A DNA stretch of 64,000 nucleotides, taken from an uncultured Methanosarcinales archaeon (lineage in GTDB: Archaea > Nanobdellota > Nanobdellia > Woesearchaeales > ARS49). Made by a program: the position numbers and the translations under genes. Below the pieces are notes generated by a model. That model did not search any database. It saw only the letters and a program-made list of their open reading frames with translations, and was not told the DNA's origin. The stretch is from the NCBI GenBank assembly GCA_964617195.1, contig CAZTVK010000019.1, positions 225,019 to 289,018 of the forward strand, written 5' to 3'. Positions 20,349-39,729 of the stretch are shown here, in pieces. Numbering within the stretch: position 1 is the stretch's first letter; each line of letters starts with the position of its first letter.

Positions 20349-22514
20349 TTAATTAATCGCCATCACAGCGCCGCTCACAATTCTCGAAGCGATAATGTTG
20401 AACAACAACATCACAACACCAGAAATAAAACAATACAACAAAGTGCTTTTAATCAAATTATTGCCGAGCAAATAACGCTCCTGCAGCTTATCAGCGCCAT
20501 TCTCAATTCCATTAGACAAAACAGTCAAAATGTACACTATCTGGAAAACATAAATTCCAACAACAGCCTGGAAATAATAAGTAGGAACACCATCACCAAA
20601 GAAGTTAGCCAACGCGCCAATCTGAGTGCCAGCCTGCTCCTCGCCCAAATTAGTGATATTCTTCGACAAATTACCCAAAATGTAAGTAATCATAGAGGTA
20701 ATTCCGATAACAATCCCTGAAATAGCAGGCGTCAAGAAAGCAATCTGAGACTTCATGTCAGAAATGATATCGGCCATCAAATCCTTCAACCGCTCGTTCA
20801 CCTTATGAATCTCCTTAATGTAACGCGCAATATTCAACAACGCCTGCGCAGCAATCAAAGGACCCTTCTTAACGCTCTCAATAAGCACTTTCATGGAAGA
20901 CTGAATAATCGCGCTCGGGAAAGCAGCCAAAGCACCCTGCTGCGGGTTAAAAAGAGCATCGCGCACACTCATGCCCAATCTGCTAATATTCGTAGCAACC
21001 AACTTGAAGAACCGACCAGAAGTTGATTCTTCCATAACTTCAGCAACTTTCTGGAACGCAATCTCGGCAGGCAAACCATCACCCAAACGGTTACCAAGCT
21101 GGAACAAAGCAGAAGAAAACTCGTCCTCCAATTTTTTCGCTTCCTCGCGAATCTTAATCACGTTCTGACTGCGCAGCCTATAGTACAAACCAAAGCTCAT
21201 AGCCAGACTAATCGGGAAAAACAAAGACAACAAACTCGCGCCAAGCCCGAACGGACCAATAATCAAGTCCTCAACCTTCATGCTTTCCTTATAGCCCAAC
21301 AACTCAAAACCAGCAAAAGAAATATCATAGGTTGGATTAACAAAATAAATAATCAAAGGCGAAAGTGCAAGAACAAGCATTGCAAAACCGACAATAAGCG
21401 CGATAAAAAAAGGAGGAATCACTATTTCAGCACCACCAACCTTTATTATAACATTATTATACTTCTTCAAAGCCGGATTAATCTCAGAAATATCCGTATC
21501 ACCATAACCAGTCGGCCTCTTAGACAAAACATTCTTGCCCATAAAGTAAACAGTCAAAGGCAACACGACATTATACAATGCAGCAATATGATACCAGGAA
21601 ACTCCCTCCATAAAACTAATCATCAAAGGCAAAATTACCAGGCCCAAAATAGGCAGGATGACTCCCAACATGTGCAGCATGGTGATAGGACCCTTCAAGT
21701 TCTGCGCGTAATGCAACATCTTCTCATACGTCTCATCAAGAATAACATCAAGACCCTTGTCCAACAAGCCCAAACGCCTCTCCTCAGAAGTCTCATACAA
21801 AGAGCTCTGCACAAGATGGAAAGACTCAACAAACTCCATGTTAGACGAACGCCAACTCTCCAAATAAGACGAGAGAGAATCCTTGATGTTCTCAAACCTA
21901 CTGTTCTCAACATCCCAAATGACCTTGCGCAAGTCCAAACTCAAAGGAGGAGCCAAATGCTCGGAAGCAAACTCAATAGCGAGCTCCAAATTGGAAGTAT
22001 GACGCATGTACGTAACAACATAAAAAATGCACAACACCATCTGATTACTAGACTTCATCCTCCACGTATTAGCCATGAACTCAGGAGTCTTTTGCAACAA
22101 AAAAATACCGGAAATACCAATGGCAAGACCAAACAACGTGAAAAAAATACTGTTCAACACAAACAGAGAAAATATCAAGCTAACAAAAATGAACGCAACA
22201 GGCACAACAATGCTCGCAGCCAACACGCCAGCAGGAGTAGTCTGCAAATGAGCAATATTAATCAAATCCTGAACCTGCGCAGCCTTCTCAGGCTTAACCT
22301 TCATCTTCAACAATTTCTCACAAAAATTACACAAGTTCTCGTACGCAGTCATATGAGGAGGCAAGAGCTCCTTCCTGAAAATATTGTACTCGCGACTATA
22401 CAACTGCCCGCTTCCAGCAGAACCCTGAATGTCCAACTGCTCAGACAACTTATGCTTGTACTTCTCAATCAAATCCTGTTCAGCAGTCACTTTCTCACCG
22501 CATTCTTCAACCAC
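20349..22514 (-). CDS. FlaJ/TadC-like polytopic membrane protein of archaeal type IV pilus/archaellum assembly (T2SS-F domain)
   Basis: 721 aa; cytoplasmic helical domains alternating with TM clusters; immediately downstream of secretion ATPase gene. Confidence 0.75.
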   Translation of the reverse strand: MVEECGEKVTAEQDLIEKYKHKLSEQLDIQGSAGSGQLYSREYNIFRKELLPPHMTAYENLCNFCEKLLKMKVKPEKAAQVQDLINIAHLQTTPAGVLAASIVVPVAFIFVSLIFSLFVLNSIFFTLFGLAIGISGIFLLQKTPEFMANTWRMKSSNQMVLCIFYVVTYMRHTSNLELAIEFASEHLAPPLSLDLRKVIWDVENSRFENIKDSLSSYLESWRSSNMEFVESFHLVQSSLYETSEERRLGLLDKGLDVILDETYEKMLHYAQNLKGPITMLHMLGVILPILGLVILPLMISFMEGVSWYHIAALYNVVLPLTVYFMGKNVLSKRPTGYGDTDISEINPALKKYNNVIIKVGGAEIVIPPFFIALIVGFAMLVLALSPLIIYFVNPTYDISFAGFELLGYKESMKVEDLIIGPFGLGASLLSLFFPISLAMSFGLYYRLRSQNVIKIREEAKKLEDEFSSALFQLGNRLGDGLPAEIAFQKVAEVMEESTSGRFFKLVATNISRLGMSVRDALFNPQQGALAAFPSAIIQSSMKVLIESVKKGPLIAAQALLNIARYIKEIHKVNERLKDLMADIISDMKSQIAFLTPAISGIVIGITSMITYILGNLSKNITNLGEEQAGTQIGALANFFGDGVPTYYFQAVVGIYVFQIVYILTVLSNGIENGADKLQERYLLGNNLIKSTLLYCFISGVVMLLFNIIASRIVSGAVMAIN

Positions 22515-24739
22515 TCATTCCACTGGAAAAAGATGCGCTGGCTGTCCAACACACCAACTTCTTCCCGCACCTGCTCTGAAATCCTGTGGAACTCGTCATT
22601 CGCACGAATGTAAAAACCAGCCTCCAACAAATCAAAATTTTTCAGCTTGTTTGCAGTTGCTACAAGAGTCTCCTTAATCTTAGCCCTAAGCTGAATGTTA
22701 TCCCACACTGCGTCCCAATTGCCCGCCCACTCCTTAACACTGCCAGCCACAGACTTGATAACATCACTATCGCCCCTCAACAAATCATTTGTGGGAACGA
22801 GCGCATCAATCTGAGGATCATACTTGAACAAGTCAACAAAACCATTCTCGGTCAGAGGGTCGTCCTCCCACAACTTACGCACTTCAGTAATCTGAGTAAC
22901 CCTTCTGTAACGATGAATTCCATCAGGACTTCTAACAGGATTAGCAACAACAATAAGATCAGTTGCTTTGAAACTCGTTCTCGGAACTCCCAAGTCGTTC
23001 ACGACACGGTCAAACACACCATACGGACTATCACCGTGAATCGTGCCGGCAACAACATTAGCCAAAGCACCAACACGCATAGCTTCATACAATGAACGCG
23101 CTTCAACACTTCTAACTTCACCAACAATCAAACTGGAATCGCCAAGACGAAGCGTACTACGAATGCCCTCATCAGCACTAACTTCAGTCGTGCCCCTCGT
23201 CAAAGCAGACGCGACCTTCATGCTCTGCACGTTATACCCTAATTTGCGCAAAGCATCAACAGGAAGCTCCAAAGTATCTTCTATTGTAATTATTCTCGAA
23301 CGGCGCATGATATCAACCATAACCGCGCCAAGCAAAGAAGTCTTACCCGAGCTTCTAGTACCAGCAACCAAAATAGTCCTGCTTCCATCAATCAAAAAGC
23401 TCAACGCGCCAGCAGCCAACGGAGTTAACATCCTAGTATTCATGAACAACGGCAGCGTCCACGGCTTGTCACGATGACGCCTAATAGAATACGCGAGACC
23501 TGTAGGATTCAAAGGAGCAGCAATAGCAGCAACTCTAGCGCGCGCTTGAGGCAAAACAAGCTCTGTATCAAGAATAGGATTAGCCTCGTCCAACGGCCTA
23601 CCAGAAAGCATCCTCAACTTTGAAGCCCAGCTCTCACCCTCAGGAGCAGTCGGAATAATATTTGTAGTGCAATCGCCAAAATCATTATGCACAATGAACA
23701 TCGGAATCCTGCCCATAGGAGAATTAATCGTGATATCCTGCACCTTATCATCCGCAAGCAAAACTTCAATCAAACCAAAACCAACAGTGTATCTAACCAG
23801 AATTTCAGCCAAATCATCACGATCCTTATTACGCAAGTGAATGTTACGATGATTTGACAATTCCTCCAACAAATCAGTACCAACACTCGTGAACACCTGA
23901 CGCATCCGCTGAGGATCAACAAACTCAGAACGCTTCGGCTGATGCTCAGACATAATCTTCCTGGCAGCATCCAACAACTCATACTTTTCCTCAGACAGCT
24001 TGAACTCAGGAGGAACCATATGGTAAAGATACTGCACTGTTTCCGGAAGCTGGAAAATAGTAATTTCAGTCTCACCAACCTGATAACTGGCCAATTCCTC
24101 GCCTTCTGAAGGGAAAGTCGCCATCAATTTAGTAAACATGAAATCAGGCTTGATCGTCGGAGAAAACAAACGGCGATAAATCGTCCTATCACCAGGCTGA
24201 AAACCCGGCAGATACGGCTGAGCGAGCTGGATCAACTTCGTCTGCTCAAGCATGCCAATAGTCTCTTGCAATAACCTGAAATAATTCTGCAAACACTGCA
24301 CGCCATCAGGAGTAGTAATATTCGCTTCAATCTGCCGTTTCTCCTCTCTAAGCAAACGCTTCAGCTCAACATACGCAGCAACAGGATCAGCCTTAAAAGT
24401 CCGATACAAAATATTCTGAATCAACGTATATCTAGGATTAATCCAACGCGCACACTCAGGCTTAGCAAGCATGCCATAAGCAAACTTCTGCTTCACCAAA
24501 TTCTTGTAAACAACCGCAAGCTCAGAAAGCAGTGCAACCTGGCCCTCATCATACTCAAAATCACGCTTTTGCACAAAAACAAGCTGGGTAACCATTCCAA
24601 CCTCTGACAACATGTCAATGGTCATACCCATCAAACGAGGCTCATCCTCCAAGCTAGGGAAAAAAGAGCAGCCTTCACAATCTACCCTGAGAATAATATC
24701 TTCCCCTTCACGAATAATATCGTACTTTCCGCACTCCAT
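22487..24739 (-). CDS. FlaI/PilB/VirB11-family secretion ATPase (type IV pilus or archaellum assembly), long form
   Basis: 750 aa; Walker A AGTRSSGKTS, Asp/His boxes, N-terminal ~200-aa extension with CEGC motif; TATA ~25 nt upstream on minus strand. Confidence 0.85.
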   Translation of the reverse strand: MECGKYDIIREGEDIILRVDCEGCSFFPSLEDEPRLMGMTIDMLSEVGMVTQLVFVQKRDFEYDEGQVALLSELAVVYKNLVKQKFAYGMLAKPECARWINPRYTLIQNILYRTFKADPVAAYVELKRLLREEKRQIEANITTPDGVQCLQNYFRLLQETIGMLEQTKLIQLAQPYLPGFQPGDRTIYRRLFSPTIKPDFMFTKLMATFPSEGEELASYQVGETEITIFQLPETVQYLYHMVPPEFKLSEEKYELLDAARKIMSEHQPKRSEFVDPQRMRQVFTSVGTDLLEELSNHRNIHLRNKDRDDLAEILVRYTVGFGLIEVLLADDKVQDITINSPMGRIPMFIVHNDFGDCTTNIIPTAPEGESWASKLRMLSGRPLDEANPILDTELVLPQARARVAAIAAPLNPTGLAYSIRRHRDKPWTLPLFMNTRMLTPLAAGALSFLIDGSRTILVAGTRSSGKTSLLGAVMVDIMRRSRIITIEDTLELPVDALRKLGYNVQSMKVASALTRGTTEVSADEGIRSTLRLGDSSLIVGEVRSVEARSLYEAMRVGALANVVAGTIHGDSPYGVFDRVVNDLGVPRTSFKATDLIVVANPVRSPDGIHRYRRVTQITEVRKLWEDDPLTENGFVDLFKYDPQIDALVPTNDLLRGDSDVIKSVAGSVKEWAGNWDAVWDNIQLRAKIKETLVATANKLKNFDLLEAGFYIRANDEFHRISEQVREEVGVLDSQRIFFQWNEWLKNAVRK

Positions 24740-24828
24740 GATTCCCCTCTTTTACTACTAATATAAAGTCACACAAGTTTATGATATTCCCCAATAACTT
24801 TAAGACTTGAGGTATTTAAACATTTAGC

Positions 24829-25320
24829 ATGGCAGACGAAGCAATACAATATGGCGCGGAAGCGCCAACACCAGCCCAGCCAGCCAAAAAAGGGCTATTC
24901 TCAGCAAAAACACCACCTCCAATGCCAGACATCAGCGGAATGACAGACCAAATCAACTCAATGGCTGCCAGAGTGCGCATAGGAGAAGAAAGATATAGCG
25001 AAATCCGCAAAAAACTACTCCTAATAGAACAAAACATGCTATCAAACCACAAAAAAGCCATGTCTGAAATAAAAACACTGCAAACAGACCTCCTGGAAAT
25101 GAAACACACAATACAAACAGTCGAAGACAGAATAATAATGGTAATTAAAGAATTACGATTAACAGCAAGAAAAGAAGACGTAGACGTCATGAAAAGATAT
25201 CTAGACCTCTGGGACCCAGTCAAATTCATCACAGCAGACAGAGTGGAAAAACTCATTGATGAAAAACTCGGCAAACCAGAAGAACAACGCATACCGCCGA
25301 ACTATGACAGCCCGTCATAG
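24829..25320 (+). CDS. Coiled-coil protein, unknown function
   Basis: 163 aa; Pro/Ala-rich N-terminus then heptad-rich helical region; divergent from the ATPase gene. Confidence 0.45.
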   Translation: MADEAIQYGAEAPTPAQPAKKGLFSAKTPPPMPDISGMTDQINSMAARVRIGEERYSEIRKKLLLIEQNMLSNHKKAMSEIKTLQTDLLEMKHTIQTVEDRIIMVIKELRLTARKEDVDVMKRYLDLWDPVKFITADRVEKLIDEKLGKPEEQRIPPNYDSPS

Positions 25321-25365: not shown

Positions 25366-26040
25366 TTGAACACAATGCCAATAATGGATATATTCAAGAA
25401 AAAGAAACCAGAAGGATCACCATACTCAATGCCAGGAGCTCAAGAAATGATGCCTCCTCCAATGGGACAAGGCATGCAAGCACCCATGGCACCATCTTCT
25501 GAAGTACCAATCTCACAAGTCGTAAGCATGCAATCACAAGGACTAACTAACAACCAAATCATACAATCATTGCAAAGACAAGGCTACCAGCCAACACAAA
25601 TCTATGACTCGCTGGCGCAGGCAGAAGCAAAAAGAAGCATAGAACCAATGGAAGTGCCGGGAGAAATGGCGCCAAAAGCAGAAATGAGAATGCCGCCCAC
25701 AACAACGCATCCTGAATCAGAAGCAATAGTGGAACAAATAATAGAAGAAAAATGGCATGAACTCCAAAAAGACCTCGGAAAAATAAACGAGTGGAAAGAA
25801 CTAATCACATCACGCATGGACAAACTCGAACAAAGCACAACAGACATGAAAATGGACCTGGACGGACTCCACAAAGCAATAGTCGCGCGCATAGGAGAAT
25901 ACGACAAGACTCTAATGGACGTAGGAACAGAAATCAAAGCCATGGAAAAAGTCTTCCAAAAAGTATTACCAGAACTAACAGGAAACATTCAAGAGCTTTC
26001 TAGAATAACAAAAAACGTGAAAGGCCCAGTAAAAAGATAA
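25366..26040 (+). CDS. Coiled-coil protein with Pro/Met/Gln-rich N-terminus and a short helix-hairpin motif
   Basis: 224 aa; MPPPMGQGMQAPMAP low-complexity; GLTNNQIIQSLQRQGYQPTQIYDSL motif; C-terminal coiled coil paralogous to previous ORF. Confidence 0.45.
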   Translation: MNTMPIMDIFKKKKPEGSPYSMPGAQEMMPPPMGQGMQAPMAPSSEVPISQVVSMQSQGLTNNQIIQSLQRQGYQPTQIYDSLAQAEAKRSIEPMEVPGEMAPKAEMRMPPTTTHPESEAIVEQIIEEKWHELQKDLGKINEWKELITSRMDKLEQSTTDMKMDLDGLHKAIVARIGEYDKTLMDVGTEIKAMEKVFQKVLPELTGNIQELSRITKNVKGPVKR

Positions 26041-26041
26041 A

Positions 26042-26599
26042 CTAGCCAGAACTCGTCATCTTACTAATAGTAAAGTAAGCAACAAGCAGAACCAAAACCA
26101 TGCCCAAAATCTTAGGATGGAACAAAGTCTGCCAGAAACCAAATTCTTTCTCAGGAGGATGCTCACCTAACGTGGCGTTTCCCCCAGCCAAATCCCTGAA
26201 GCCCTTCTCCTCATTAATAACGAAAAACAAAGAGCCAAGACCAATAATCAACATGATAGAAAGCACCCACATGCCAAAAGCGCCACCATACTCTTCACCA
26301 GTAATCGTCTCAATAACCTTCTCCTTGCTGATTCCAAAAGTCATGTAAGCAAGAACGATCAGCACGCCAAAAATAATGAACAGCACAAACCACGGCGCCA
26401 TCAAATTAATAGTCTTAATCGCAATCCTGGAAAACAAAGTCATGATAGCAGCAATAATCGCAATCAAAGCAGCCATGCCTTGCTTTTCCTTAAACCAATC
26501 ACTCTGAGAAAGAATCGCGTAAACAAGCACGAGAACTAACAAAAACGGGAAAATCCCTCCAAACTGCTGCAAAACACTAATGTCTAAAGGAGTCGCCAT
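26042..26599 (-). CDS. 4-TM membrane protein, member of tandem paralog family (P4)
   Basis: 185 aa; 4 hydrophobic helices; the most divergent of four adjacent paralogs. Confidence 0.5.
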   Translation of the reverse strand: MATPLDISVLQQFGGIFPFLLVLVLVYAILSQSDWFKEKQGMAALIAIIAAIMTLFSRIAIKTINLMAPWFVLFIIFGVLIVLAYMTFGISKEKVIETITGEEYGGAFGMWVLSIMLIIGLGSLFFVINEEKGFRDLAGGNATLGEHPPEKEFGFWQTLFHPKILGMVLVLLVAYFTISKMTSSG

Positions 26600-26601
26600 G
26601 G

Positions 26602-27291
26602 TCAGGGCTTAGTAAGCATCCACCTCTTCATAGCCACTTCCATCTTCTCTCCGCCCTCAGGCCTGATAACCCACCAGCCAACCAAGCCCATAGTTAACAA
26701 CACAACTATGAGCGCCTGGATTGCAGGATCACGAAGCCACGTAGACGTAGGAAGCCAATACGGAAACATGTTCATCAAGAACAAAACAACAAGCACGCCA
26801 ACAGCAGCAACAGCCACAAACATCTGCATCATACTAGGCATGCCAGCACCAGCCAAGCCGAGCAATAACAACACGACAAAAACAGCCATAAGCACAATCG
26901 CAGTACTAGGCAAGAATGCGCTAATCATGTCAATAGGATCCTGACCAGGAGGATAATAACCAAGAATATGAGGCATGGTAACAGACAAAGAGATAACAAT
27001 CGCGATCATAGAATTAATACGCTTGTTGCCAACCATGACGTCAACGGTTCTTGCATCGTTGCCCGTGCCAACAGTCTTTGTCTTCCCAACCAATTGTCCC
27101 TGCGCATTTTTCTCCATCACTTGCACTTGGAACAAAGGAGTTCGTTGCAAAATGGCAAAAATTAAAGTGAAAAACAACAAAGCAGGCAAGAGAAAATCCT
27201 GAAAGCCAAAGTCAGTCAAGTACTGAAACAAACTACTAAGCTGACCTCCGCCACTCGGGTACTGTTGCATAAATTGAAACAACATTTTCAC
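26602..27291 (-). CDS. 4-TM membrane protein, tandem paralog family (P3)
   Basis: 229 aa; shares SGGG…SLFQxLxDxGFxDxLLPxLLxFTxIFxILQ and YPPGQDP(I/V)D…FLPSTA(I/V)…LLLLGLAG blocks with P2. Confidence 0.55.
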   Translation of the reverse strand: MKMLFQFMQQYPSGGGQLSSLFQYLTDFGFQDFLLPALLFFTLIFAILQRTPLFQVQVMEKNAQGQLVGKTKTVGTGNDARTVDVMVGNKRINSMIAIVISLSVTMPHILGYYPPGQDPIDMISAFLPSTAIVLMAVFVVLLLLGLAGAGMPSMMQMFVAVAAVGVLVVLFLMNMFPYWLPTSTWLRDPAIQALIVVLLTMGLVGWWVIRPEGGEKMEVAMKRWMLTKP

Positions 27292-27905
27292 TTAATCTCG
27301 CCAAACATACGATTCAGCCAATCAGTAAATCCATGCGAGTTTGGCGCCGTTGGCTCTCGGATAACAAAAAAGCCAACCAGACCCATGACTAGCAGAATGA
27401 TAACCAAAGCCTGAATGGACGGGTCATGCAAGAAGCTAAAAGTAGGCCAGAAGCCAGGAAGCACGGCCATCAAGATCATCACGATCAAAAAGCCCAAAGC
27501 GACAAGAGCAACAGTCCACAACATAAAGCTCGGAACAGCGCCGCCAGCCAAGCCAAGCAATAATATAACACACAACACTGCTAATAAGATAACGGCAGTG
27601 CTAGGCAAGAACTGATTGATGATGTCAACAGGATCCTGACCAGGAGGGTAAGCCCCAATAATATGAGGAACGACAACCATAGCAGCAATAATAAAGCCTA
27701 GAACAGCGTTAATTTGCTTATCAGGCTTCTTGTCATCTCCTTTATGGAACAAAGCAATCTTCTGCAAAATACCAAATATGATTGTGAACAACAACAAGAA
27801 CGGCAATAAAGCATCAATGAAGCCCCAGTCTACCAAAGCCTGGAACAATGACTGGATAGCGCTTCCGCCGCCACCAGAATACGGTGCATATGCTTGAAAC
27901 AACAT
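27288..27905 (-). CDS. 4-TM membrane protein, tandem paralog family (P2)
   Basis: 205 aa; ATGA overlap with P3; conserved blocks as above. Confidence 0.55.
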   Translation of the reverse strand: MLFQAYAPYSGGGGSAIQSLFQALVDWGFIDALLPFLLLFTIIFGILQKIALFHKGDDKKPDKQINAVLGFIIAAMVVVPHIIGAYPPGQDPVDIINQFLPSTAVILLAVLCVILLLGLAGGAVPSFMLWTVALVALGFLIVMILMAVLPGFWPTFSFLHDPSIQALVIILLVMGLVGFFVIREPTAPNSHGFTDWLNRMFGEIK

Positions 27906-27920
27906 TCTACTCCTCCTTTT

Positions 27921-28517
27921 TTATTCACTCTTAGACTCTTTAGTTATCCAGACCATAAAGATAATGATTACGATTATTAAAACTATCGCAGCAACAGCAG
28001 CATTAGTATAGAACTGACTCAGCCAGTCCCAAAAGATTTCCAGCCAAGTACGGCCATCCTCAGCCACAATAGCATCCAAAAAGATGAAAATGATTGAAAT
28101 AGCAATGATGAACATGAACGTGGTCCTCCACGCTTTGTCAGTCGGCAAAAGCTCACCTTTCTTAATCTCATCATAAGTTCGGAAAGTGCCAATAAGCATC
28201 AAGAAAAACACTATCAACAAAAGCAACACGATAATCTCACTGCTCACCTTTGTAATAGTCTCAACCAACTTCGAGCTTGCCACAACCATGAAAGCAATGA
28301 CAAAACTGACCATCGCGTTCAGATTCTTCTTAGTAATAGCACGATCCTTGACAGTGCCCTCAGTGCCGAAAATCTGAGTTCGCTCAAGAATAGCGAACAT
28401 AATCGTAAAAACAAGAATGAATGGAAGGACAACATCATAGACACCCAATTCTTTGAAGAACTCTAACACATTGCCCAATGCAGTTTCAGCCATCAAGTCA
28501 CACTCTTTACGATTCAC
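27921..28517 (-). CDS. 4-TM membrane protein, tandem paralog family (P1)
   Basis: 198 aa; same TM topology; N-terminal LEFFKELGVYDVVLPFILVFTIMFAILERT matches family block. Confidence 0.5.
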   Translation of the reverse strand: MNRKECDLMAETALGNVLEFFKELGVYDVVLPFILVFTIMFAILERTQIFGTEGTVKDRAITKKNLNAMVSFVIAFMVVASSKLVETITKVSSEIIVLLLLIVFFLMLIGTFRTYDEIKKGELLPTDKAWRTTFMFIIAISIIFIFLDAIVAEDGRTWLEIFWDWLSQFYTNAAVAAIVLIIVIIIFMVWITKESKSE

Positions 28518-28588
28518 TATTGGATTTCGTGGTTATATAAAGCTTTCTGTGGCAACATTTATAAATCACGACGAAAGCTAAAAATACA

Positions 28589-29832: not shown

Positions 29833-31602
29833 ATGAAAAGAACGCACACATGCGGCGAAATCACAAAAAAAGAACTACAAAAAGAAGTAGTGCTCTGCGG
29901 CTGGGTACAAACAAGAAGAGACCACGGAGGCAAAATCTTCGTAGACCTACGCGACAGATACGGAATCACCCAAGCAGTCTTTGACCCATCACACAACAAA
30001 CAAGCACACGAAACAGCACAACACCTAGGCAGAGAATGGGTACTCCAAATAACCGGACACGTCAGACTAAGACCGCAAGGCATGACGAACACAAAAATCG
30101 TAACAGGAGAAGTAGAAGTCCTCTGCGACTCACTAACAGTCCTCAACCAATCAGAAACACCACCATTCGAAATCGAAGACCGAGAAGAAACAAACGAAGA
30201 ATTACGCCTAGAATACAGATACTTAGACCTAAGAAGACAAAGCATGCAAGAAAGATTATTACTACGCCACAACGCAGCACAAGCAGCACGAGAATACCTG
30301 TCATCGCAAAACTTCATGGAAATAGAAACACCAATACTCCAAAGAACAACACCAGGAGGAGCAAGAGTATACAAAGTACCAAGCAGAGCACACCCAGGAA
30401 AATTCTTCGCACTACCAGAATCACCACAAATCTACAAACAACTATTGATGGTAAGCGGATGCGACAGATACTTCCAACTAGCACGATGCCTCCGCGACGA
30501 AGACTTACGAGCAGACAGACAACCAGAATTCACACAAATAGACCTAGAAATGAGCTTTGTAGACGAAAAAGACGTACAAACAATCGTAGAAGGACTCATC
30601 AAACACACATTCAAAAAAGTACTCAACAAAGAAGTGCAAACACCATTCGCCAGAATGACATTCCACGAAGCCATGACCAAATACGGAAGCGACAAACCAG
30701 ACCTGCGCTTTGGGTTAGAGTTTGTTGACGTAACAGACATAGTAAAACACTCCGACTTCGGAATATTCAAATCAGTGGCAGACAAAAAAGGAAAAATATT
30801 CTGCCTAAACGCAAAAGGAGCAGGAAAGTTCACACGCACAGAAATAGAAGAACTAATCGAAATCGCCAAACTATACAAACTCCCAGGACTAGCATGGATG
30901 AAAGTAACAGGAACAAACATGCTCGAAAGCAGCATAGTAAAGTATTTCCAACAAAACATCCAAGCACAACTAATCAACGCAGTAAAAGCACAAGAAGGAG
31001 ACTTATTGCTTTTCGCAGCAGACCAATTCGAAAAAGCAGCAAACGCGCTAGGACAAGTAAGACTACACATCGGCAAAAAACTAGGACTAATCAAAGAAGG
31101 AGAATACAACTTCCTATGGGTAGTAGACTTCCCATTATACGAATGGAACGAAGAAATCAACAGCTGGCAAGCAAGACACCACATCTTCACGCATCCAAAA
31201 GACGAAGACCTAGACAAACTAGAAACAGCACCAGGAGAAGTCAGAGCAAAAGCATACGACTGCATCCTGAACGGAGTAGAACTAGGAGGCGGAAGCATCA
31301 GAATCCACAGAAAAGACGTACAAGCACGCGTATTACACGTTATTGGTCTCGAATATGAAGAAGCAGAAAAAAGATTCGACTTCCTAATGAGAGCCTTCAA
31401 ATACGGCGCGCCACCACACGGCGGAATAGCAATCGGATTCGACAGATTCGTAGCACTAATGTGCGGACTAAATGATATCAGAGAAGCAATCGCGTTCCCA
31501 AGAAACAAAGCATCAGAAAACCCGCTAGACGGCAGCCCACAAGACTGGACAGAAGAATTTTTGAAAGAACTACGAATGAAACTGGACATTGTTAAAAAAT
31601 AA
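29833..31602 (+). CDS. aspS: Aspartyl-tRNA synthetase, bacterial-type (long form with GAD insertion domain); likely non-discriminating
   Basis: 589 aa; N-terminal OB domain (RTHTCGEI…VLCGWVQTRRDHGGKIFVDLRDRYG), class II motifs 1-3 (FRDEDLRADRQPEFTQID; GGGSIRIH; GFDRFVALMCG). Confidence 0.9.
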   Translation: MKRTHTCGEITKKELQKEVVLCGWVQTRRDHGGKIFVDLRDRYGITQAVFDPSHNKQAHETAQHLGREWVLQITGHVRLRPQGMTNTKIVTGEVEVLCDSLTVLNQSETPPFEIEDREETNEELRLEYRYLDLRRQSMQERLLLRHNAAQAAREYLSSQNFMEIETPILQRTTPGGARVYKVPSRAHPGKFFALPESPQIYKQLLMVSGCDRYFQLARCLRDEDLRADRQPEFTQIDLEMSFVDEKDVQTIVEGLIKHTFKKVLNKEVQTPFARMTFHEAMTKYGSDKPDLRFGLEFVDVTDIVKHSDFGIFKSVADKKGKIFCLNAKGAGKFTRTEIEELIEIAKLYKLPGLAWMKVTGTNMLESSIVKYFQQNIQAQLINAVKAQEGDLLLFAADQFEKAANALGQVRLHIGKKLGLIKEGEYNFLWVVDFPLYEWNEEINSWQARHHIFTHPKDEDLDKLETAPGEVRAKAYDCILNGVELGGGSIRIHRKDVQARVLHVIGLEYEEAEKRFDFLMRAFKYGAPPHGGIAIGFDRFVALMCGLNDIREAIAFPRNKASENPLDGSPQDWTEEFLKELRMKLDIVKK

Positions 31603-31623
31603 TAGGTTTTGCAATTATAACAA

Positions 31624-31646
31624 GGGGGCCTTAACGCCCGGCCCCC
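31624..31646 (+). terminator. GC-rich hairpin (gggggcc-uuaacgccc-ggccccc) followed by UUU
   Basis: 7-bp perfect GC stem 22 nt after aspS stop, before gatC. Confidence 0.4.
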
Positions 31647-31665
31647 TTTGGAACCCCCGACGCTC

Positions 31666-31950
31666 ATGGACATAACCCCAGAACTAGTAAAAAGAGTAGC
31701 TGCAAACGCACGGCTGAATCTGAAAGACACAGAACTCAAACAGTTCGCAACAGAAATGAAAGAAATTCTCGCAACATTCGAAAAACTCGCAGAAGTCAAA
31801 ACAGACAATATAGAGCCAAGCTTCCACCCAATACCTGTAAAGAATGTCGTACGCGAAGACAAACCAGGAAAATGCCTTGACAGAGAAGAAGCACTAGCTC
31901 TCACGCCCCACAAAAAAGACAAATACTTCAGAGGGCCAAAAACAATATGA
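31666..31950 (+). CDS. gatC: Aspartyl/glutamyl-tRNA amidotransferase subunit C
   Basis: ~94 aa from ATG 31666 (ORF-track start 31648 is TTG inside the hairpin); GatC-like ITPELVKRVA…LNL…E…F; ATGA overlap with gatA. Confidence 0.75.
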   Translation: MDITPELVKRVAANARLNLKDTELKQFATEMKEILATFEKLAEVKTDNIEPSFHPIPVKNVVREDKPGKCLDREEALALTPHKKDKYFRGPKTI

Positions 31951-33353
31951 TAAAACAATTCGTCAAAGACGCAATCTCAGGAAAAATAAACATAGTAGAA
32001 CACACAGAAAAAGCAATAGAGGAAGCAGAAAAAATCAACAAAGAATACAAGTATGTCACAGCATGGGCCGACGCAGTTGAACGAGCAAAAGAATTGCAAG
32101 AACAAGTCAAAAACGGAACAGCACACGGAAGACTATTCGGAGTCCTAATTTCTGTCAAGGACAACATCTGCGTCAAAGGAGTAGAAAGCACAGCAAGCAG
32201 CGCCATACTGAAAGGCTACAAACCAGTATTCAACGCAACAGTAATCGAAAAATGCCTGCGCGAAGGAGCAATAATACTCGGCAAAACAGTCCAAGACGAA
32301 TTCGGATTCGGAGGATTTGCAGTCAATGTAGGCAAAGGCTTTGAAAAACCGTTAAACCCAATAGACAAGAAAAGAACAACAGGCGGAAGCTCAGGAGGAG
32401 CAGCAGGACTCACAAAAAAAGCAACATTCCCACACCTAGCATTATCAGAAAGCACAGGAGGAAGCATAGTCGACCCAGCATCATTCTGCGGAGTAGTCGG
32501 CATCTGCCCAACCTACGGACGCGTCTCACGATACGGACTCATCGACTACGCAAACAGCCTGGACAAAATCGGAACAATGGGACTAACAGTAGACGACGCA
32601 GCGCTGTTGCTAGAAATAATCTCAGGACACGACGCAAAAGACAGCACATCAGCAGAAATCCCAGTACACCCACTAGACACGGCCGGAGCAATAAACGGAC
32701 TAAAAATAGGAATAGTCACGGAAGCATTCGAGGGAGTGGACGCTAACGTCAGAAAAGCAGTAATGGAAGCAATCTACAAACTAGAACAAAAAGGAGCACG
32801 AAGAATAGAAATTTCACTTCCAATCTCAATGAAATACGGACTCGCAGCATACTACACTTTAGCCATGACAGAAGCAAGCACCAACCTCGCAAAATACTGC
32901 GGACTACGCTACGGAGCAACAGACCAACTAACAGGAACATACAACGAATACTTCACACGCGTAAGAACCAACAATTTCGGAGAAGAAGCAAAAAGAAGAC
33001 TATTGCTAGGAACATTCGCCAGAATGGCAGGATACCGCGATGCATTCTACAAAAAAGCAGCACAAGTCAGAACCTTAATACTCAAAGAATACGCTGAAGC
33101 GTTCAAAAAAGTCGACGTTTTGATAACGCCAACAATGCCAATCGTCGCGCCAACATTCGACGAAATCAAAAAACTAACACCACTCCAGAATTACCTGATG
33201 GACATTCTTACTGTTTCTCCAAATCTTGCAGGACTGCCGCACATTACAATACCATGCGGTCAACACAACAACCTGCCAATCGGCCTGATGATAACCGGAC
33301 CACACTTCGCAGAACAAAAAATAATACAGGTAGCAAAAGCACATGGAAACTGA
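31947..33353 (+). CDS. gatA: Asp-tRNA(Asn)/Glu-tRNA(Gln) amidotransferase subunit A (amidase)
   Basis: 468 aa; amidase signature GGSSGGAAG, Ser-cisSer-Lys triad context. Confidence 0.9.
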   Translation: MIKQFVKDAISGKINIVEHTEKAIEEAEKINKEYKYVTAWADAVERAKELQEQVKNGTAHGRLFGVLISVKDNICVKGVESTASSAILKGYKPVFNATVIEKCLREGAIILGKTVQDEFGFGGFAVNVGKGFEKPLNPIDKKRTTGGSSGGAAGLTKKATFPHLALSESTGGSIVDPASFCGVVGICPTYGRVSRYGLIDYANSLDKIGTMGLTVDDAALLLEIISGHDAKDSTSAEIPVHPLDTAGAINGLKIGIVTEAFEGVDANVRKAVMEAIYKLEQKGARRIEISLPISMKYGLAAYYTLAMTEASTNLAKYCGLRYGATDQLTGTYNEYFTRVRTNNFGEEAKRRLLLGTFARMAGYRDAFYKKAAQVRTLILKEYAEAFKKVDVLITPTMPIVAPTFDEIKKLTPLQNYLMDILTVSPNLAGLPHITIPCGQHNNLPIGLMITGPHFAEQKIIQVAKAHGN

Positions 33354-34753: not shown

Positions 34754-35230
34754 ATGGGAGAACTTGAAGAACTGATAGAAAAACTTCAAACAGAAGAAGG
34801 AAAAATCGCAGCAATTGTCGATGCTGTTGAACGTAAGCTGATTACCAATCCAGATTATATTGAGCGCACATTCCAATTTTATGTGAATTTAGGGATAACT
34901 GACCAGTACAGTGCAATTGATGGACTGAAGAAGCTTGATTTACCGCAATATTCAGAAAGAATTATTGATGCTTTAGAAAACATGAAAGAATATGTAGAAG
35001 CTGCAGAATTCGCCCAAAAAAACGGATTTCTTGAGCGAGCTATAATTAACTATGAACGTTCAGGCAACTTTGTTTTCGCAGCGAAAAACTGTGAAGAACA
35101 CGCCATGCAAATAAAAGCTGAAAATCCTGATGAAGCCATCAAATACTCCGTGAAAGCTGAAAATTATCTTGAACTCGCAAAAGCACTTGGCCACGAAAAA
35201 GTCATAGCTCTTTTTGAAGAGAAGCGCTAG
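34754..35230 (+). CDS. Hypothetical all-helical protein
   Basis: 158 aa, no recognisable motif. Confidence 0.4.
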   Translation: MGELEELIEKLQTEEGKIAAIVDAVERKLITNPDYIERTFQFYVNLGITDQYSAIDGLKKLDLPQYSERIIDALENMKEYVEAAEFAQKNGFLERAIINYERSGNFVFAAKNCEEHAMQIKAENPDEAIKYSVKAENYLELAKALGHEKVIALFEEKR

Positions 35231-36429
35231 TTCTGGAACAAATTATCCAGTTCAGAATGCAATCTTGACTCGAAATCAGCGTTTCTCTCGCCTTCCAACT
35301 TCTCAGAAGACAACGAATGCATCAGTTTCTTGGCAAGCTCAACATCATCCGCAGAGAATTTGAACTGAGAAGCATGCTGTTGCAACAATGAATGCTCAAC
35401 CTCCTCAACATTAGCCTCCTTCACCATAATAACTTCCAAATCCTTGCTAGTAAAGGCATTCGTATTCTTCATCACAAAATAAGCCTTCCTAGCGTAAACC
35501 TCATGGAAAACATCATTCCAACGAACATCAGCAGGCCTGCCCTGACGCAAACAACCAGAAACACGAACAGCCACAATAGAATTAGCCAGACTATACTTGC
35601 CAAGCTCAATCATAATCAACGCCTCAACCTCAGAAGGAGTCTTACCGTCAGCATCAACAGAAACGCACACAGCAGGATGCACAACAAGAGGAACATGCAA
35701 CACGTTCCCATTCTCCACAATCACAAAACTACCATGCTTCAACTTCTCAACCTCAGAAAAATTATTAGGAAAAATAGGACCAGGGTAAACAATGTTCTTG
35801 TACTTGCCAATAGTTTGCTTATCAACCACGTGCACATGACCGCCAGCATAATAATCAAAACCAGCAGGCATCAATGAAACAGCCATCGCGTCCATCTGCT
35901 CCAAATCCTTAGGCTTCAACTCAGCCAAAGCACTATGAAACATGAAAATTTTGAAACCAGGCTCACTCTCAAGATGCTCTTTAGCCAAATGATAATAATA
36001 TCCCTTCTCAAGACCGCCCTTCTTGCCAAGCATACCAGTAATCTTAACACCAGTCTTCTGATCAACAGTAAAATGCAATTTGATTTTGTTATCAGGAGTT
36101 TCCTCACCACGCGCAACATTAACCGCAAGACCAGCATGCTCAAGAACATCCAACATGGTCTTGCCACTAGGACTAAAATCATGACTGCCGGCAATATAAT
36201 ACACAGGAATCCCAGCATCCTTAACTTTCTTCAACTGCTCAACAGCCATCTTCAAACTATCAATGCCTGGCACAGCAGTATTAAACAAATCACCAGAGAT
36301 GAGAATAAAATCCACTTTTCCAGCAAGACATTTTTCAATCGCCATTATGAAACTCTTGCTATTCGCATCACGCAGCCGAGGCTCACGCCAACCACCAATA
36401 TGACAATCAGACAAATGAGCGAACTTCAT
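35227..36429 (-). CDS. mre11: Mre11-like DNA double-strand-break repair nuclease (calcineurin-like metallophosphoesterase)
   Basis: 400 aa; phosphoesterase motifs I DCHIG, II GDLFN, III GSHD, IV FHSA, V GGHVH. Confidence 0.8.
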
Positions 36430-37925
36430 AACTTCAACCCAGCAAAACTCTGACGAGGCTTACTTACAACTTTATGTTCTTCATGCAAAATCTTGATAGG
36501 CGTGGCAAAACTCAAGAAATTACTCGTCACAATAGCCTCGCCCTTATCCAAACTCGCAATCATACGATCATCACTTGACAAGTCCTGCGCAGCACTCTCA
36601 ATAATGGCCTGACGCTCAGGCTTCAACTCAATACCAAGAATAATTTTCGTATTAATATTAGCAAGAACTTCCCTTGGAATCAAAGAAGGCAACTGCGTAA
36701 TCGCAATCAAGCCAACATTAAACTTTCGACCTTCACGCGCAACAGTAGAAAACACATTCGGACCTCTCTCCAACACGTCCTTGCCAAGAACACGAGGAGC
36801 CTCCTCCAAAACAATACTCACAACAGGCTTGCTCTTCATCTCATGCAAAGAATAAGTCTTATGCCGCTCCAAAACCATATGCGCAATCATGCTGCCAATC
36901 AAAATCTCAACATTACCATAAAAAGAACTCGTGTCCATGACAACAGTCTTTCCCGACTCAAGCGCATTCACAATATCAGGAACAGTAGTCTGGCCAGCAC
37001 TAGTATCAAACACGCCATGACAAGAAATATTCTTCTCATCATCAACATCCAAACGCAACAACTGCATTAAAGTACGCTTGACAACAGCCAAAGTCCCCTC
37101 GTGAAACTGCTGGCGCAACTCATGCTCCCGCAAAACAGCCTCAACCCAAGAATCCTTGTAAGCCTGATAATACGCAGTCAGGGCCTGACGCTGAGCATCA
37201 GTCCACTCAACAGCACCATCAAAATGACGCGGATTAAGCTGGCCAAGATGAACCTTCAAAGTCCTTCCACCCGGAGGAGGATTATACGGAGTATAGTAAA
37301 CAATCTGTTCACGCGCACCAGGATGCTTCTGCAATTTCTCATAATACTCATCATGAGGGTCAAGCACCAGCATAGCGCAATAATCCTTGTCAAGAGCATC
37401 CCACAACAAATTAGTCATCAACACGCTCTTGCCACGACCAGTCGTGCCAGCAATCAGAATATGATGGCTTAAAGCCAACCTGCCATCAACCGAAACAGGA
37501 ACCTCCAACACCTTAGAACCACTCCTCAGCTTACCAAGAAATAACGGATTGTGAGGAGTCGTGATAAAAGAAACATCACTTGCCTGAATTTCGCGAACCT
37601 TACTAAAAAAGGTAGGCAGGGTCTTAGCAGAACGCGCATTCTTTCCAGAAATAAAAGCCAAATTCTTCAAACGAGCAAGCACATAAGTTCGCAATTTAGC
37701 ATCCATCAGCTCTAACTTCTCATCCTCCTCCAATTTCAAACCAGAAATAAGCTCAAGATGCTGCTGGGTCAACTGAGAACCATATAACAAATCAAAAGCC
37801 TGCAATAACATCTGTCCATTCGATGTATCAGCAATCAGAAGCTCACCTAACTCCAACGCCTGCTCGTTCTTCTGGCGGACGAGAATATTTCCAAACTCTC
37901 CCCCAATAATCAACCCTTTAGTCAC
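36426..37925 (-). CDS. herA: HerA-like FtsK/HerA-superfamily ATPase/helicase
   Basis: 499 aa; Walker [11 protein letters not shown], HerA-type LVLDPHDEY block; ATGA overlap with mre11. Confidence 0.75.
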
Positions 37926-39301: not shown

Positions 39302-39727
39302 ATGGTAACAATACAATTCGTACCCTACACGGAAATCGAAGGATTAACCGGACTCGGCAGGATCAGAAAACTCCTTAACATAGCAAAGATGAACAAAATA
39401 GTATTGCTCCAAGGACGCTTAAGAAAAGAAGAAGAAGCAGAACTAATCAAAACAACAATGGAAGAAATCGACAAAAAATTCAAAGGCATAGAACTCGCAG
39501 TAATCAACCCATCACAAACAGCGCAAGATGGTCTGCAAAAATTCAAATACGACCTTCTAGGATTATTCCTGGGAGAAAGCCAAGGCCTCACAATCATCGG
39601 ACCATCAAACATAGTCAAAAGCATCAAAAAAGATCCGAACAAAATAGAACTGCTCACATCGGAGGTATCGGCAAAAAGATTCGCCGGAACTTCCTCTTAT
39701 AAGTCGGAGGCGCGCAAGCGCAAATAA
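39302..39727 (+). CDS. Conserved archaeal protein of the GTPase-associated pair (DUF2073-like)
   Basis: 141 aa; immediately after the GTPase stop; conserved gene-neighbourhood in archaea. Confidence 0.45.
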   Translation: MVTIQFVPYTEIEGLTGLGRIRKLLNIAKMNKIVLLQGRLRKEEEAELIKTTMEEIDKKFKGIELAVINPSQTAQDGLQKFKYDLLGLFLGESQGLTIIGPSNIVKSIKKDPNKIELLTSEVSAKRFAGTSSYKSEARKRK

Positions 39728-39729
39728 CA

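What the first reader, a model, noticed from the sequence alone, without database searches (positions are those of the whole stretch)
26042..28517. Four tandem paralogous 4-TM proteins of unrecognised family next to the type IV pilus/archaellum-like ATPase locus
Four consecutive minus-strand genes (185-229 aa) share topology (4 hydrophobic helices) and conserved blocks (…SLFQxLxDxGFxDxLLPFLLLFTIIFxILQ…, loop YPPGQDP(I/V)D, FLPSTA(I/V)(I/V)LxAVxxV(I/L)LLLGLAG). They lack class-III prepilin signals, Walker motifs or known transporter signatures. Local amplification and divergence of a membrane protein family beside FlaI/FlaJ homologs suggests a dedicated membrane complex. None of the motifs I recognise assign a function.
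Basis: seen in the sequence. Interest (0 to 1): 0.65.

Follow-up and report, generated by a model that had tools for sequence, protein, structure and literature searches.

The report
Conserved three-paralog membrane operon beside pilus motor
Four neighbouring genes of a tiny symbiotic archaeon (Woesearchaeota/Nanoarchaeia) encode related five-helix membrane proteins of an undescribed family. They derive from an ancient, always-ordered three-gene set that is almost always encoded next to the organism's pilus-type ATPase motor, so they probably form an unknown membrane part of that machine.

Summary
The four minus-strand genes are real and homologous, but the description needs correcting. They have five TM helices, not four. 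They fall into three ancient subfamilies in a fixed order, A (P4), B (P3, plus P2, a clade-specific duplicate of B) and C (P1). The quoted YPPGQDP and FLPSTA blocks occur only in P2 and P3.

The family has no significant match in Pfam, NCBIfam, PADLOC, PHROGs, PDB sequences, or the PDB and BFVD folds. It is large (2661 50%-identity clusters). All named or titled hits are Woesearchaeota/Nanoarchaeia MAGs.

All 63 complete species-level loci are A-B-C or A-B-B-C.

The operon has its own promoter and is not co-transcribed with the ATPase. It still sits in a conserved block: [A B C→][←two coiled-coil proteins][long FlaI/TadA-type ATPase, TadC/FlaJ-type platform→].
- The ATPase lies within 10 kb in 88% of triplet-selected loci.
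- The triplet lies within 10 kb in 75% of ATPase-selected metagenome loci, where translin synteny has fallen to 17%.

Best reading (about 0.55): a hetero-oligomeric accessory membrane complex of a Nanoarchaeia-specific type-IV-filament-like machine. The main rival is an unrelated membrane complex kept nearby by synteny. The biochemical function is unknown.

The parts
27921..28493 (-). A 5-TM protein of 190 aa from the ATG at 28493; the ORF is open back to a GTG at 28517. Signature residues: G25, Y27, D28, L31-P32-F33, E45, K64-N65-x-N67.
27288..27905 (-). Signature residues: G28, D31, L34-P35-F36, P80-H81, Y86-P87, D91, N97, P101, G118. The D/H/Y/D cluster is predicted to lie on the outer membrane face.
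26602..27291 (-). It is a clade-specific duplicate of B (47% identical to P3). It keeps most of the B signature and has a ~30-residue K/R-rich insertion in cytoplasmic loop 1. Its start overlaps the P3 stop by 4 nt.
26042..26599 (-). Signature residues: F13, F17, P69-W70-F71, G89, P162-K163, G166. In the family, the loop between TM4 and TM5 is long, acidic and rich in glycosylation sequons.
28534..28540 (-). TTATATA box, a candidate archaeal TATA element. It lies ~40 nt upstream of the ATG of subunit A, in the 71-bp divergent intergenic region shared with the translin gene.
   Evidence: sequence reading; no promoter tool for archaea
25366..26040 (+). cc224, a soluble protein with a small N-terminal helical domain, a Pro-rich linker and a C-terminal coiled coil. 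It is convergent with subunit C, with 1 nt between the stop codons. It is the most faithfully linked neighbour of the triplet (94%).
24829..25320 (+). cc163, a soluble coiled-coil protein with a conserved C-terminal Y..LW.P..F motif. It is transcribed divergently from the ATPase.
22487..24739 (-). A 750-aa T2SSE-family secretion ATPase of the FlaI/TadA type, with a ~225-residue N-terminal extension.
20349..22514 (-). A 713-721-aa polytopic membrane protein, a divergent T2SSF (TadB/TadC/FlaJ/PilC-type) platform.

Best explanation
The four genes encode subunits of one hetero-oligomeric integral-membrane complex. Ancestrally it was A:B:C; here it is A:B:B2:C. The family is specific to Nanoarchaeia (Woesearchaeota-type DPANN archaea).

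Shown:
- The subunits are mutually homologous 5-TM proteins.
- They are encoded in an invariant order on one strand with short or overlapping junctions.
- They are preceded by a candidate TATA box, so probably have their own promoter.
- The charge distribution fits an N-out/C-in topology.
- The triplet is embedded in a conserved block: [A B C→][←cc224 cc163][long FlaI/TadA-type ATPase, TadC/FlaJ-type platform→].

Inferred: the complex is an accessory membrane component of this type-IV-filament-like machine.
- The two soluble coiled-coil proteins would act as a cytoplasmic scaffold between the ATPase/platform motor and the K/R-rich cytoplasmic loops and tails of A, B and C.
- On the outer face, B would contribute a conserved Asp/His/Tyr/Asp cluster. 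C would contribute a long, acidic, probably glycosylated loop.
- In this way the complex would anchor, align or gate whatever the motor assembles or moves through the envelope. That role is comparable in logic, not in ancestry, to the PilMNO alignment proteins or the FlaF/FlaG stator.

The actual substrate or activity is unknown.
For: Homology and order:
- The subunits are homologous to one another.
- All 63 complete species-level loci are ABC or ABBC, with tight spacing (median gaps 18 and 7.5 nt).
- The same triplet occurs in divergent lineages: L009, and L095-L097, where a 763-aa T2SSE ATPase lies ~460 bp away among different flanking genes.

Linkage, selecting on the triplet (33 loci with at least 8 kb on both sides):
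- ATPase within 10 kb in 88%.
- cc224 in 94%.
- cc163 in 88%.

Linkage, selecting on the ATPase (24 metagenome loci with at least 8 kb on both sides):
- Triplet 1.0-3.6 kb away in 75%.
- cc224 in 92%.
- cc163 in 96%.
- Platform in 83%.
- Translin, the other frequent neighbour of the triplet in the first sample, in only 17%.

The linkage also survives rearrangements: L034 has the motor upstream, and L059, L061, L071 and L074 have it inverted.

Structure and topology:
- K+R residues concentrate in loop 1, loop 3 and the C-tail in all three types.
- The C-type loop 4 has a median length of 39 aa, 5.4 acidic residues and 0.86 N-x-S/T sequons.

Neighbours: they are a genuine T2SSE ATPase and a T2SSF-type platform.

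Literature:
- Makarova et al. [quoted passage not shown] - Unexplained accessory membrane proteins recur in several archaeal T4P loci.
Against: - There is no direct evidence of physical or functional interaction. The triplet is a separate transcription unit, convergent with cc224.
- 4 of the 33 triplet-selected loci, plus L009 and L089, lack the ATPase within ~9-10 kb and are flanked by unrelated housekeeping genes.
- 6 of the 24 ATPase-selected loci lack the triplet.
- Synteny in this lineage is conservative in general. Translin (73%) and AspRS (76%) are also frequent neighbours in the first sample.
- The AF2 monomer has only moderate global confidence (pTM 0.52). No multimer model could be run.
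- No known type-IV-filament system has a comparable component.
Confidence: 0.55

Rival explanations
1. The triplet is an autonomous housekeeping membrane complex, such as a channel, small-solute or lipid transporter, or membrane-biogenesis factor. It has nothing to do with the pilus-type motor. Its position next to the motor is inherited synteny in small, slowly rearranging genomes.
For: - It probably has its own promoter, and it converges on the neighbouring genes.
- The triplet stands alone among metabolic and translation genes in L009, L033, L066, L077, L081 and L089.
- Translin and AspRS are linked almost as often as the motor in the triplet-selected sample (73-76% against 88%).
- Near-universal presence and fixed order suit a core function.
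- Automatic annotations and sub-threshold hits point vaguely to permeases or acyltransferases. Examples: JGI names; NCS1 at 20 bits for P1; Acyl_transf_3 at 27 bits for P0283.
Against: - In ATPase-selected loci the translin linkage collapses to 17% while the triplet stays at 75%.
- The linkage survives several independent rearrangements and different flanks.
- No transporter family is hit by more than one of 21 diverse members.
- There is no fold match to any solved transporter.
Confidence: 0.3
2. Subunit B is a membrane-embedded enzyme with catalytic Asp, His and Tyr residues, and A and C are non-catalytic paralogous partners. It would process or modify substrates of the machine. One possibility is a functional replacement for a prepilin peptidase. 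Another is a lipid- or glycan-modifying activity at the outer membrane face.
For: - B-specific residues D31, H81, Y86 and D91 are invariant or nearly so. They cluster at one membrane face, and most of them are missing from A and C.
- The two Asp residues are 60 residues apart.
- No A24 peptidase gene was seen among the window proteins that were scanned.
Against: - No Pfam Peptidase_A24 hit and no sequence or fold match to any solved peptidase was found. To my knowledge FlaK is in the PDB.
- The motif is P-G-x-D, not G-x-G-D.
- The charge distribution puts the cluster on the outside, whereas prepilin peptidases cleave at the cytoplasmic face.
- Only 64 kb of the genome was inspected, so a canonical peptidase may exist elsewhere.
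Confidence: 0.1
3. The proteins are unconventional filament or pseudopilin subunits. They would be cleaved after the conserved Gly that precedes TM1 and assembled by the ATPase/platform.
For: - In A and B a nearly invariant Gly is followed by x-x-D and a hydrophobic helix (G-x-x-D-x-x-LPF).
- Cognate pilins were reported as not identifiable for a nanoarchaeal ATPase (PMC4858521).
Against: - The N-terminal segment is about 20 residues, net acidic (K+R 0.5-1.4 against D+E 1.4-3.2) and helical. The residue before the Gly is hydrophobic or aromatic, not basic.
- The proteins have five TM helices and no globular domain, so extracting them from the membrane into a filament is implausible.
- Subunit C lacks the motif.
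- A conventional candidate with an 'HRG|IALVILG...' signal exists at 40270-40758.
Confidence: 0.03

Closest known systems
Uncharacterised accessory membrane proteins of archaeal type IV pilus loci. Examples from Makarova et al. 2016 (PMC4858521): arCOG07264/arCOG07329 of the Sulfolobus bindosome, arCOG10497/arCOG10500 of Thermoproteales, and the 4-5-TM partners arCOG05557/arCOG13890 of subclade 4D ATPases.
   Same: - They are small polytopic membrane proteins without a class-III signal.
- They are encoded beside a VirB11/FlaI-family ATPase, some beside a TadC/FlaJ-type platform as well.
- Their function is unknown and their distribution is lineage-specific.
- In subclade 4F a cytoplasmic coiled-coil protein accompanies the system, and a nanoarchaeal ATPase of that clade has no identifiable pilins.
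   Different: - The present family is a fixed trio of paralogues with its own operon.
- It co-occurs with a full-length platform, so it is not a TadC substitute (hhalign against the platform gives 0.2% probability).
Alignment or stator subcomplexes of type IV filament machines: PilM/N/O(/P) in bacteria and FlaF/FlaG (ArlF/G) with ArlX or ArlCDE in archaella.
   Same: - Proposed role by analogy: non-motor membrane components that connect the cytoplasmic ATPase/platform to the envelope.
- They are accompanied by coiled-coil cytoplasmic scaffold proteins.
   Different: - Those proteins are bitopic or monotopic with globular domains.
- A, B and C are 5-TM proteins with almost no soluble domain.
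- There is no detectable homology.
Archaeal prepilin/preflagellin peptidases (peptidase A24: FlaK, PibD, EppA).
   Same: - Similar size (~200-240 aa) and polytopic architecture.
- Two conserved Asp about 60 residues apart in subunit B. The comparison with FlaK/PibD rests on my own knowledge.
   Different: - No Pfam PF01478 hit and no PDB sequence or fold hit.
- The motif is PGxD, not GxGD.
- The Asp residues are predicted on the outer face.
- A and C lack the second Asp.
Ion-driven stator units (MotA/MotB, ExbB/ExbD, ZorA/ZorB).
   Same: - A hetero-oligomeric small membrane complex.
- An invariant Asp and Pro in a TM helix of A and B.
- Neighbouring long coiled-coil proteins. cc224 gives weak coiled-coil-type hits to ZorA tails (E=0.002).
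   Different: - There is no homology.
- The Asp sits at the predicted outer end of TM1.
- The ZorA hit covers only coiled coil and is probably compositional.

Membership tests
Type IV pilin / archaellin (class III signal peptide proteins) | A short, positively charged leader ending in [KR]-G/A, followed by a single hydrophobic helix and then a globular domain. | tested here: not met
   - The N-terminal segment is net acidic (K+R 0.5-1.4, D+E 1.4-3.2).
- The residue before the conserved Gly is W, L, Y, I or F.
- There are five TM helices and no globular domain.
T2SSF / TadB-TadC / FlaJ platform proteins (PF00482) | A cytoplasmic helical T2SSF domain, detected by Pfam PF00482 or the EpsF/PilC fold. 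| tested here: not met
   - For P1-P4 there is no PF00482 hit.
- hhalign of the family against the neighbouring platform family gives 0.2% probability.
- The neighbouring 721-aa protein does show the feature: 7/19 orthologues hit PF00482 (best E=4.5e-5), and Foldseek matches 2vmb_B with prob 1.00.
Peptidase A24 (prepilin peptidase FlaK/PibD) | Pfam PF01478. Two catalytic Asp, the second in a GxGD motif. Active site at the cytoplasmic face. | tested here: not met
   - No Pfam hit at E<=1.
- No PDB sequence or fold hit.
- The motif is P-G-x-D.
- The Asp residues lie on the K/R-poor side, predicted to be outside.
Known transporter families (NCS1, ECF S-components, ABC TMDs and others) | A score above the curated threshold of a Pfam or NCBIfam model, reproducible across family members. 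| tested here: not met
   - The best hit is NCS1 TIGR00800 at 20.3 bits against a cut-off of 353, for P1 only.
- Among 21 diverse members, no NCBIfam model is hit by more than one.
TMEM127 (PF20517) | Pfam gathering score of 25.3 bits over the 113-position model. | tested here: inconclusive
   - A few family members (P0220, P0229, P0234, P0279; P0250 just below the cut-off) reach 25-29 bits. The match covers ~55 residues, two TM helices.
- The window proteins do not match.
- It is most likely a hydrophobic-composition match.
T2SSE secretion ATPase (neighbour at 22487-24739) | Pfam PF00437 above its gathering score, and similarity to FlaI/TadA. | tested here: met
   - PF00437 scores 54.7 bits against a cut-off of 24.9.
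- The NCBIfam FlaI model scores 124 bits and TadA 118 bits. Both are far below the equivalog cut-offs, so it is a member of the superfamily but not an archaellum FlaI orthologue.
Obligate hetero-oligomeric complex encoded by the A-B-C operon (the claim made here) | Co-presence, fixed gene order and tight or overlapping junctions across distant genomes. Physical interaction. | tested here: inconclusive
   - The genomic criteria are met. 63/63 complete loci are ABC or ABBC, the median gaps are 18 and 7.5 nt, and P3/P2 overlap by 4 nt.

The most novel reading that the evidence does not exclude
The A-B-C complex, the two coiled-coil proteins, the long ATPase and the platform together form a previously undescribed envelope machine specific to Nanoarchaeia. 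It would be pilin-independent or pilin-poor. In this reading the 15-20-TM hetero-oligomer is the actual membrane conduit or anchor, driven by a type-IV-filament motor. These obligate symbionts would use it to attach to a host cell or to exchange material with it (lipids, DNA or metabolites).
Probability: 0.12. Interest if true: 0.85.

Novelty: new variant of a known kind. Interest (0 to 1): 0.6.

Why it matters
- DPANN archaea such as Woesearchaeota depend on host cells. How they attach to hosts and import what they cannot make is largely unknown.
- Their type-IV-pilus-like ATPase/platform pair is one of the few recognisable surface machines they encode. An earlier census could not find cognate pilins for a nanoarchaeal ATPase.
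- This work defines a large unannotated family (about 2,700 50%-identity clusters). All named or titled hits are Nanoarchaeia. It forms an invariant three-subunit membrane module that is tied to that motor together with two coiled-coil proteins.
- That gives a concrete, testable set of candidate parts for the missing membrane side of the machine.
- Even if the linkage proves to be only syntenic, the family is a near-universal, lineage-specific membrane complex of unknown function. It merits a family definition.

Tried and rejected
Searches that found nothing consistent or significant:
- Pfam, NCBIfam, PADLOC and PHROGs scans of P1-P4, and of 21 diverse family members.
- A profile of the family against all PDB sequences. 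The best hit was a 37-residue YajC TM peptide at E=0.017, which I treat as chance.
- Foldseek of the AF2 model of P3 against the PDB (best E=3.2) and BFVD (best E=0.96).
- The IMG/VR scan found no relatives, so a viral or mobile origin is unlikely.
- Literature searches found no description of this family.

Libraries and jobs that were not available:
- A concatenated A+B+C paired alignment for a pseudo-multimer AF2 run was prepared.

Ideas considered and rejected:
- The triplet as a fragment or derivative of the platform protein (hhalign 0.2%).
- The TMEM127 Pfam flag on some homologues. It is borderline (25-29 bits on two TM helices) and probably compositional.
- The NCS1 hit of P1, which was not reproduced in any other member.
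- The apparent A-B fusion protein P0079 (365 aa) as a Rosetta-stone argument. It is a single cluster, and the fusion contradicts the N-out/C-in topology, so it may be a frameshift or gene-calling artefact.
- The profiles of cc224 and cc163, which gave only generic coiled-coil matches.
Full report
**What is in the window**

Four back-to-back minus-strand ORFs occupy 26042-28517:
- P1: 26042-26599, 185 aa.
- P2: 26602-27291, 229 aa.
- P3: 27288-27905, 205 aa.
- P4: 27921-28517, 198 aa.

The junctions are tight: 15 nt between P4 and P3, a 4-nt overlap between P3 and P2, and 2 nt between P2 and P1.

Pairwise BLASTP shows that P2 and P3 are clear paralogues (47% identity, E=8e-60). P4 is related to both through its N-terminal half (E about 1e-9 to 1e-10). 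P1 is only marginally similar (E=2.5e-4 to P4).

Homology of all four was established with independent profiles:
- An HMM built only from P3-type sequences hits all 74 P4-type proteins from other genomes (median E=3e-22) and 49 of 73 P1-type proteins.
- Profile-profile probabilities between the three types are 98.5-99.9%.

So the observation 'four tandem paralogues' is correct.

**Corrections to the description**

1. The proteins have five TM helices, not four.
   - An AlphaFold2 model of P3 (37-sequence alignment, mean pLDDT 82, pTM 0.52) has an N-terminal amphipathic helix (14-25). It has TM helices at 28-49, 62-82, 91-118, 126-147 and 161-181, and a C-terminal amphipathic helix.
   - Hydropathy gives five segments in all four proteins.
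2. The quoted motifs YPPGQDP(I/V)D and FLPSTA...LLLGLAG exist only in P2 and P3.
3. P4 most likely starts at the ATG at 28493.
   - This Met is conserved in 95% of orthologues.
   - A TTATATA box sits at 28534-28540, too close to the upstream GTG for that to be the start.
4. The array is a separate transcription unit. Two plus-strand genes lie between it and the ATPase, and it converges on the first of them with 1 nt between the stop codons.

**Family and distribution**

None of the four proteins reaches the threshold of any Pfam, NCBIfam, PADLOC or PHROGs model.
- Among 21 diverse family members, no NCBIfam model is hit by more than one. The 20-bit NCS1 match of P1 is therefore chance.
- A few homologues carry a borderline TMEM127 flag (25-29 bits over two TM helices), which I regard as compositional.
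- The family profile finds nothing in PDB sequences.

The family is nevertheless large. A profile search of 1.84 billion cluster representatives gave 2661 proteins at E<=1e-3 and 1452 at E<=1e-10, nearly all 180-230 aa.

All named hits, and all 80 loci recovered from species-representative genomes, are MAGs or SAGs labelled Woesearchaeota, Nanoarchaeia, Nanoarchaeota or Nanobdellota. Some carry generic 'uncultured archaeon' or, apparently wrongly, 'uncultured Methanosarcinales' labels. No relatives occur in IMG/VR viral contigs.

**The real unit is an ordered triplet**

Type-specific HMMs were applied to the 80 species loci:
- Every complete locus is either A-B-C (51 loci) or A-B-B-C (12 loci). 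A is the P4 type, B the P3/P2 type and C the P1 type.
- All genes are on one strand, with median gaps of 18 and 7.5 nt.
- The only loci with fewer members are cut by contig ends.
- The four-gene form is confined to a minority of loci that includes the window's closest relatives.

More divergent lineages again show A-B-C: L009, and L095-L097, at about 30-45% identity over part of the length.

So there was no recent 'local amplification'. The triplication is old. P2 is a later duplicate of B that retains most of the B signature residues.

An invariant order of paralogous small membrane proteins with coupled junctions is the genomic signature of subunits of one hetero-oligomer. This is an inference; physical interaction was not tested.

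**Anatomy of the subunits**

K+R residues concentrate in loop 1, loop 3 and the C-tail in all three types, and are scarce in the N-tail, loop 2 and loop 4. This predicts N-out/C-in.

Signature residues:
- A and B share a nearly invariant G-x-x-D-x-x-L-P-F at the outer start of TM1.
- B alone has P80-H81, Y86-P87, D91, N97 and P101. Together these form an Asp/His/Tyr/Asp cluster on the predicted outer face.
- C lacks these residues. It has P69-W70-F71 and P162-K163.

In the family, C also has a long variable loop 4 (median 39 aa) with 5.4 acidic residues and 0.86 N-x-S/T sequons on average. This is consistent with an exposed, glycosylated loop.

**The neighbours**

- **ATPase (22487-24739).** It is a T2SSE ATPase (PF00437, 54.7 bits). 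It matches FlaI (124 bits) and TadA (118 bits) models far below equivalog thresholds and carries a ~225-residue N-terminal extension.
- **Platform (20349-22514).** It gave no Pfam hit itself, but four lines of evidence identify it as a divergent TadB/TadC/FlaJ-type platform.
  - 7 of 19 orthologues hit T2SSF, with best E=4.5e-5.
  - Some homologues carry precomputed PF00482 or a JGI 'TadB' name.
  - The AF2 model has pLDDT 77.6 and pTM 0.73.
  - That model contains a domain matching the EpsF cytoplasmic domain 2vmb_B (prob 1.00, TM 0.73, rmsd 3.0 Å over 121 columns). It also matches, more weakly, a chain of the type IVa pilus machine model 3jc8, probably PilC.
- **Coiled-coil proteins (24829-25320 and 25366-26040).** Both are soluble coiled-coil proteins with no family assignment.

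The triplet family is unrelated to the platform (hhalign 0.2%).

**Is the linkage meaningful?**

*Selecting on the triplet.* In 33 species loci with at least 8 kb on both sides:
- ATPase within 10 kb: 88%.
- cc224: 94%.
- cc163: 88%.
- Platform: 70%.
- But also translin 73% and AspRS 76%, so general synteny is a real confounder.

Three observations argue for more than synteny.
1. The block survives rearrangements and changes of flank.
   - L006 has different upstream genes.
   - In L034 the motor has moved upstream, and L059, L061, L071 and L074 have it inverted.
   - In L096 the ATPase is convergent ~460 bp away among TraB/PRC genes.
2. Where the ATPase is not nearby, cc224 can still stay with the triplet (L033, L077).
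3. The reverse experiment keeps the linkage.
   - 80 metagenome loci were selected only by the ATPase (51-61% identical to the L096 ATPase).
   - In the 24 with at least 8 kb on both sides, the triplet is 1.0-3.6 kb away in 18 (75%).
   - cc224 is present in 22, cc163 in 23 and the platform in 20.
   - Translin is present in only 4 (17%).

The canonical arrangement [A B C→][←cc224 cc163][ATPase platform→] is therefore conserved well beyond the point where the housekeeping synteny has decayed.

Against an obligate association:
- Four of the 33 triplet-selected loci, plus L009 and L089, have a stand-alone triplet among unrelated genes. These include a PEP-utilising enzyme, arginine decarboxylase, Dus, thioredoxin-reductase-like, arginase, CorA and GatA.
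- 6 of the 24 ATPase-selected loci lack the triplet within 10 kb.

**Interpretation**

The best-supported reading (confidence about 0.55) is that A, B (B2) and C form a hetero-oligomeric membrane complex. It would act as an accessory component of a Nanoarchaeia-specific type-IV-filament-like machine. The coiled-coil proteins would act as a cytoplasmic scaffold.

The heteromer part of this statement is considerably firmer than the link to the machine.

This fits what Makarova et al. 2016 (PMC4858521) found:
- a nanoarchaeal T4P-type ATPase without identifiable pilins;
- an intracellular coiled-coil protein in that ATPase clade's halobacterial loci;
- recurrent, unexplained accessory membrane proteins in archaeal T4P loci.

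Rivals:
- An unrelated housekeeping membrane complex kept nearby by synteny (0.3).
- A catalytic B subunit with pseudo-enzyme partners (0.1).
- Unconventional pilin-like subunits (0.03). The acidic leader, the non-basic -2 position and the five TM helices argue against this.

No literature describing the family was found.

**Verdict**

The finding is real and the family is genuinely unannotated. The details given (4 TM, shared motifs, local amplification) were wrong.

I rate it a new variant of a known kind: a type-IV-filament-type locus with a novel three-paralogue membrane module. Interest is about 0.6.

Noticed in passing
window 40270-40758 (+): A 162-aa ORF starts MEEEHRG|IALVILGIIAIIAVIGLVLMF..., which looks like a class-III (type IV pilin-like) signal. 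It is followed by an 86-aa hydrophobic-start ORF at 40759-41019. Neither has a Pfam hit. It could be a pilin for the nearby ATPase/platform.
   Followed up: partly
window 39302-40110 (+): Two adjacent genes match the origin-associated proteins OapB (E=4e-17) and OapC (E=1e-22). A replication origin may therefore lie nearby, although the cumulative GC skew shows no turning point in the window.
   Followed up: no
window, whole length: On the plus strand A exceeds T (AT skew +0.13 to +0.45, except 56-60 kb) and C exceeds G (GC skew -0.05 to -0.36) throughout. This holds largely regardless of gene orientation. T-rich membrane genes on the minus strand explain part of it. The persistent negative GC skew suggests that the window lies in one replichore.
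   Followed up: partly
L025:5890-9672 (+): The orthologue of the long ATPase is a 1261-aa ORF in this genome, against ~750-800 aa elsewhere. This suggests an intein or other large insertion.
   Followed up: no
L004:17936-18562, L010:17678-18304, L089:8318-9283: LAGLIDADG homing-endonuclease ORFs lie just downstream of the platform gene or of the triplet in several relatives. There is none at the corresponding place in the window.
   Followed up: no
protein P0079 (365 aa): One cluster representative is an apparent A-B fusion joined by a ~20-residue S/T/Q/N-rich linker. With five TM helices in A and an N-out B, this is topologically awkward. It may be a frameshift or gene-calling artefact, or it may mean the predicted topology is wrong.
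   Followed up: partly
window 895-6464 (+): Four consecutive ORFs of 491, 452, 212 and 707 aa have no Pfam match. Two have N-terminal hydrophobic anchors. They lie upstream of a PMT_2/GT87-type glycosyltransferase (6461-7867). They may be surface or envelope proteins.
   Followed up: no
window 35227-37925 (-): A Mre11-like metallophosphatase (400 aa) and a HerA/DUF87 ATPase (499 aa) form a pair that is also conserved in the syntenic relatives (L001, L004).
   Followed up: no
window 21588-22613 (+), 24816-25292 (-), 30432-31958 (-): Long antisense 'shadow' ORFs of up to 508 aa overlap real genes (the platform, cc163 and AspRS). They are low-complexity artefacts of the skewed composition, not genes.
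   Followed up: no
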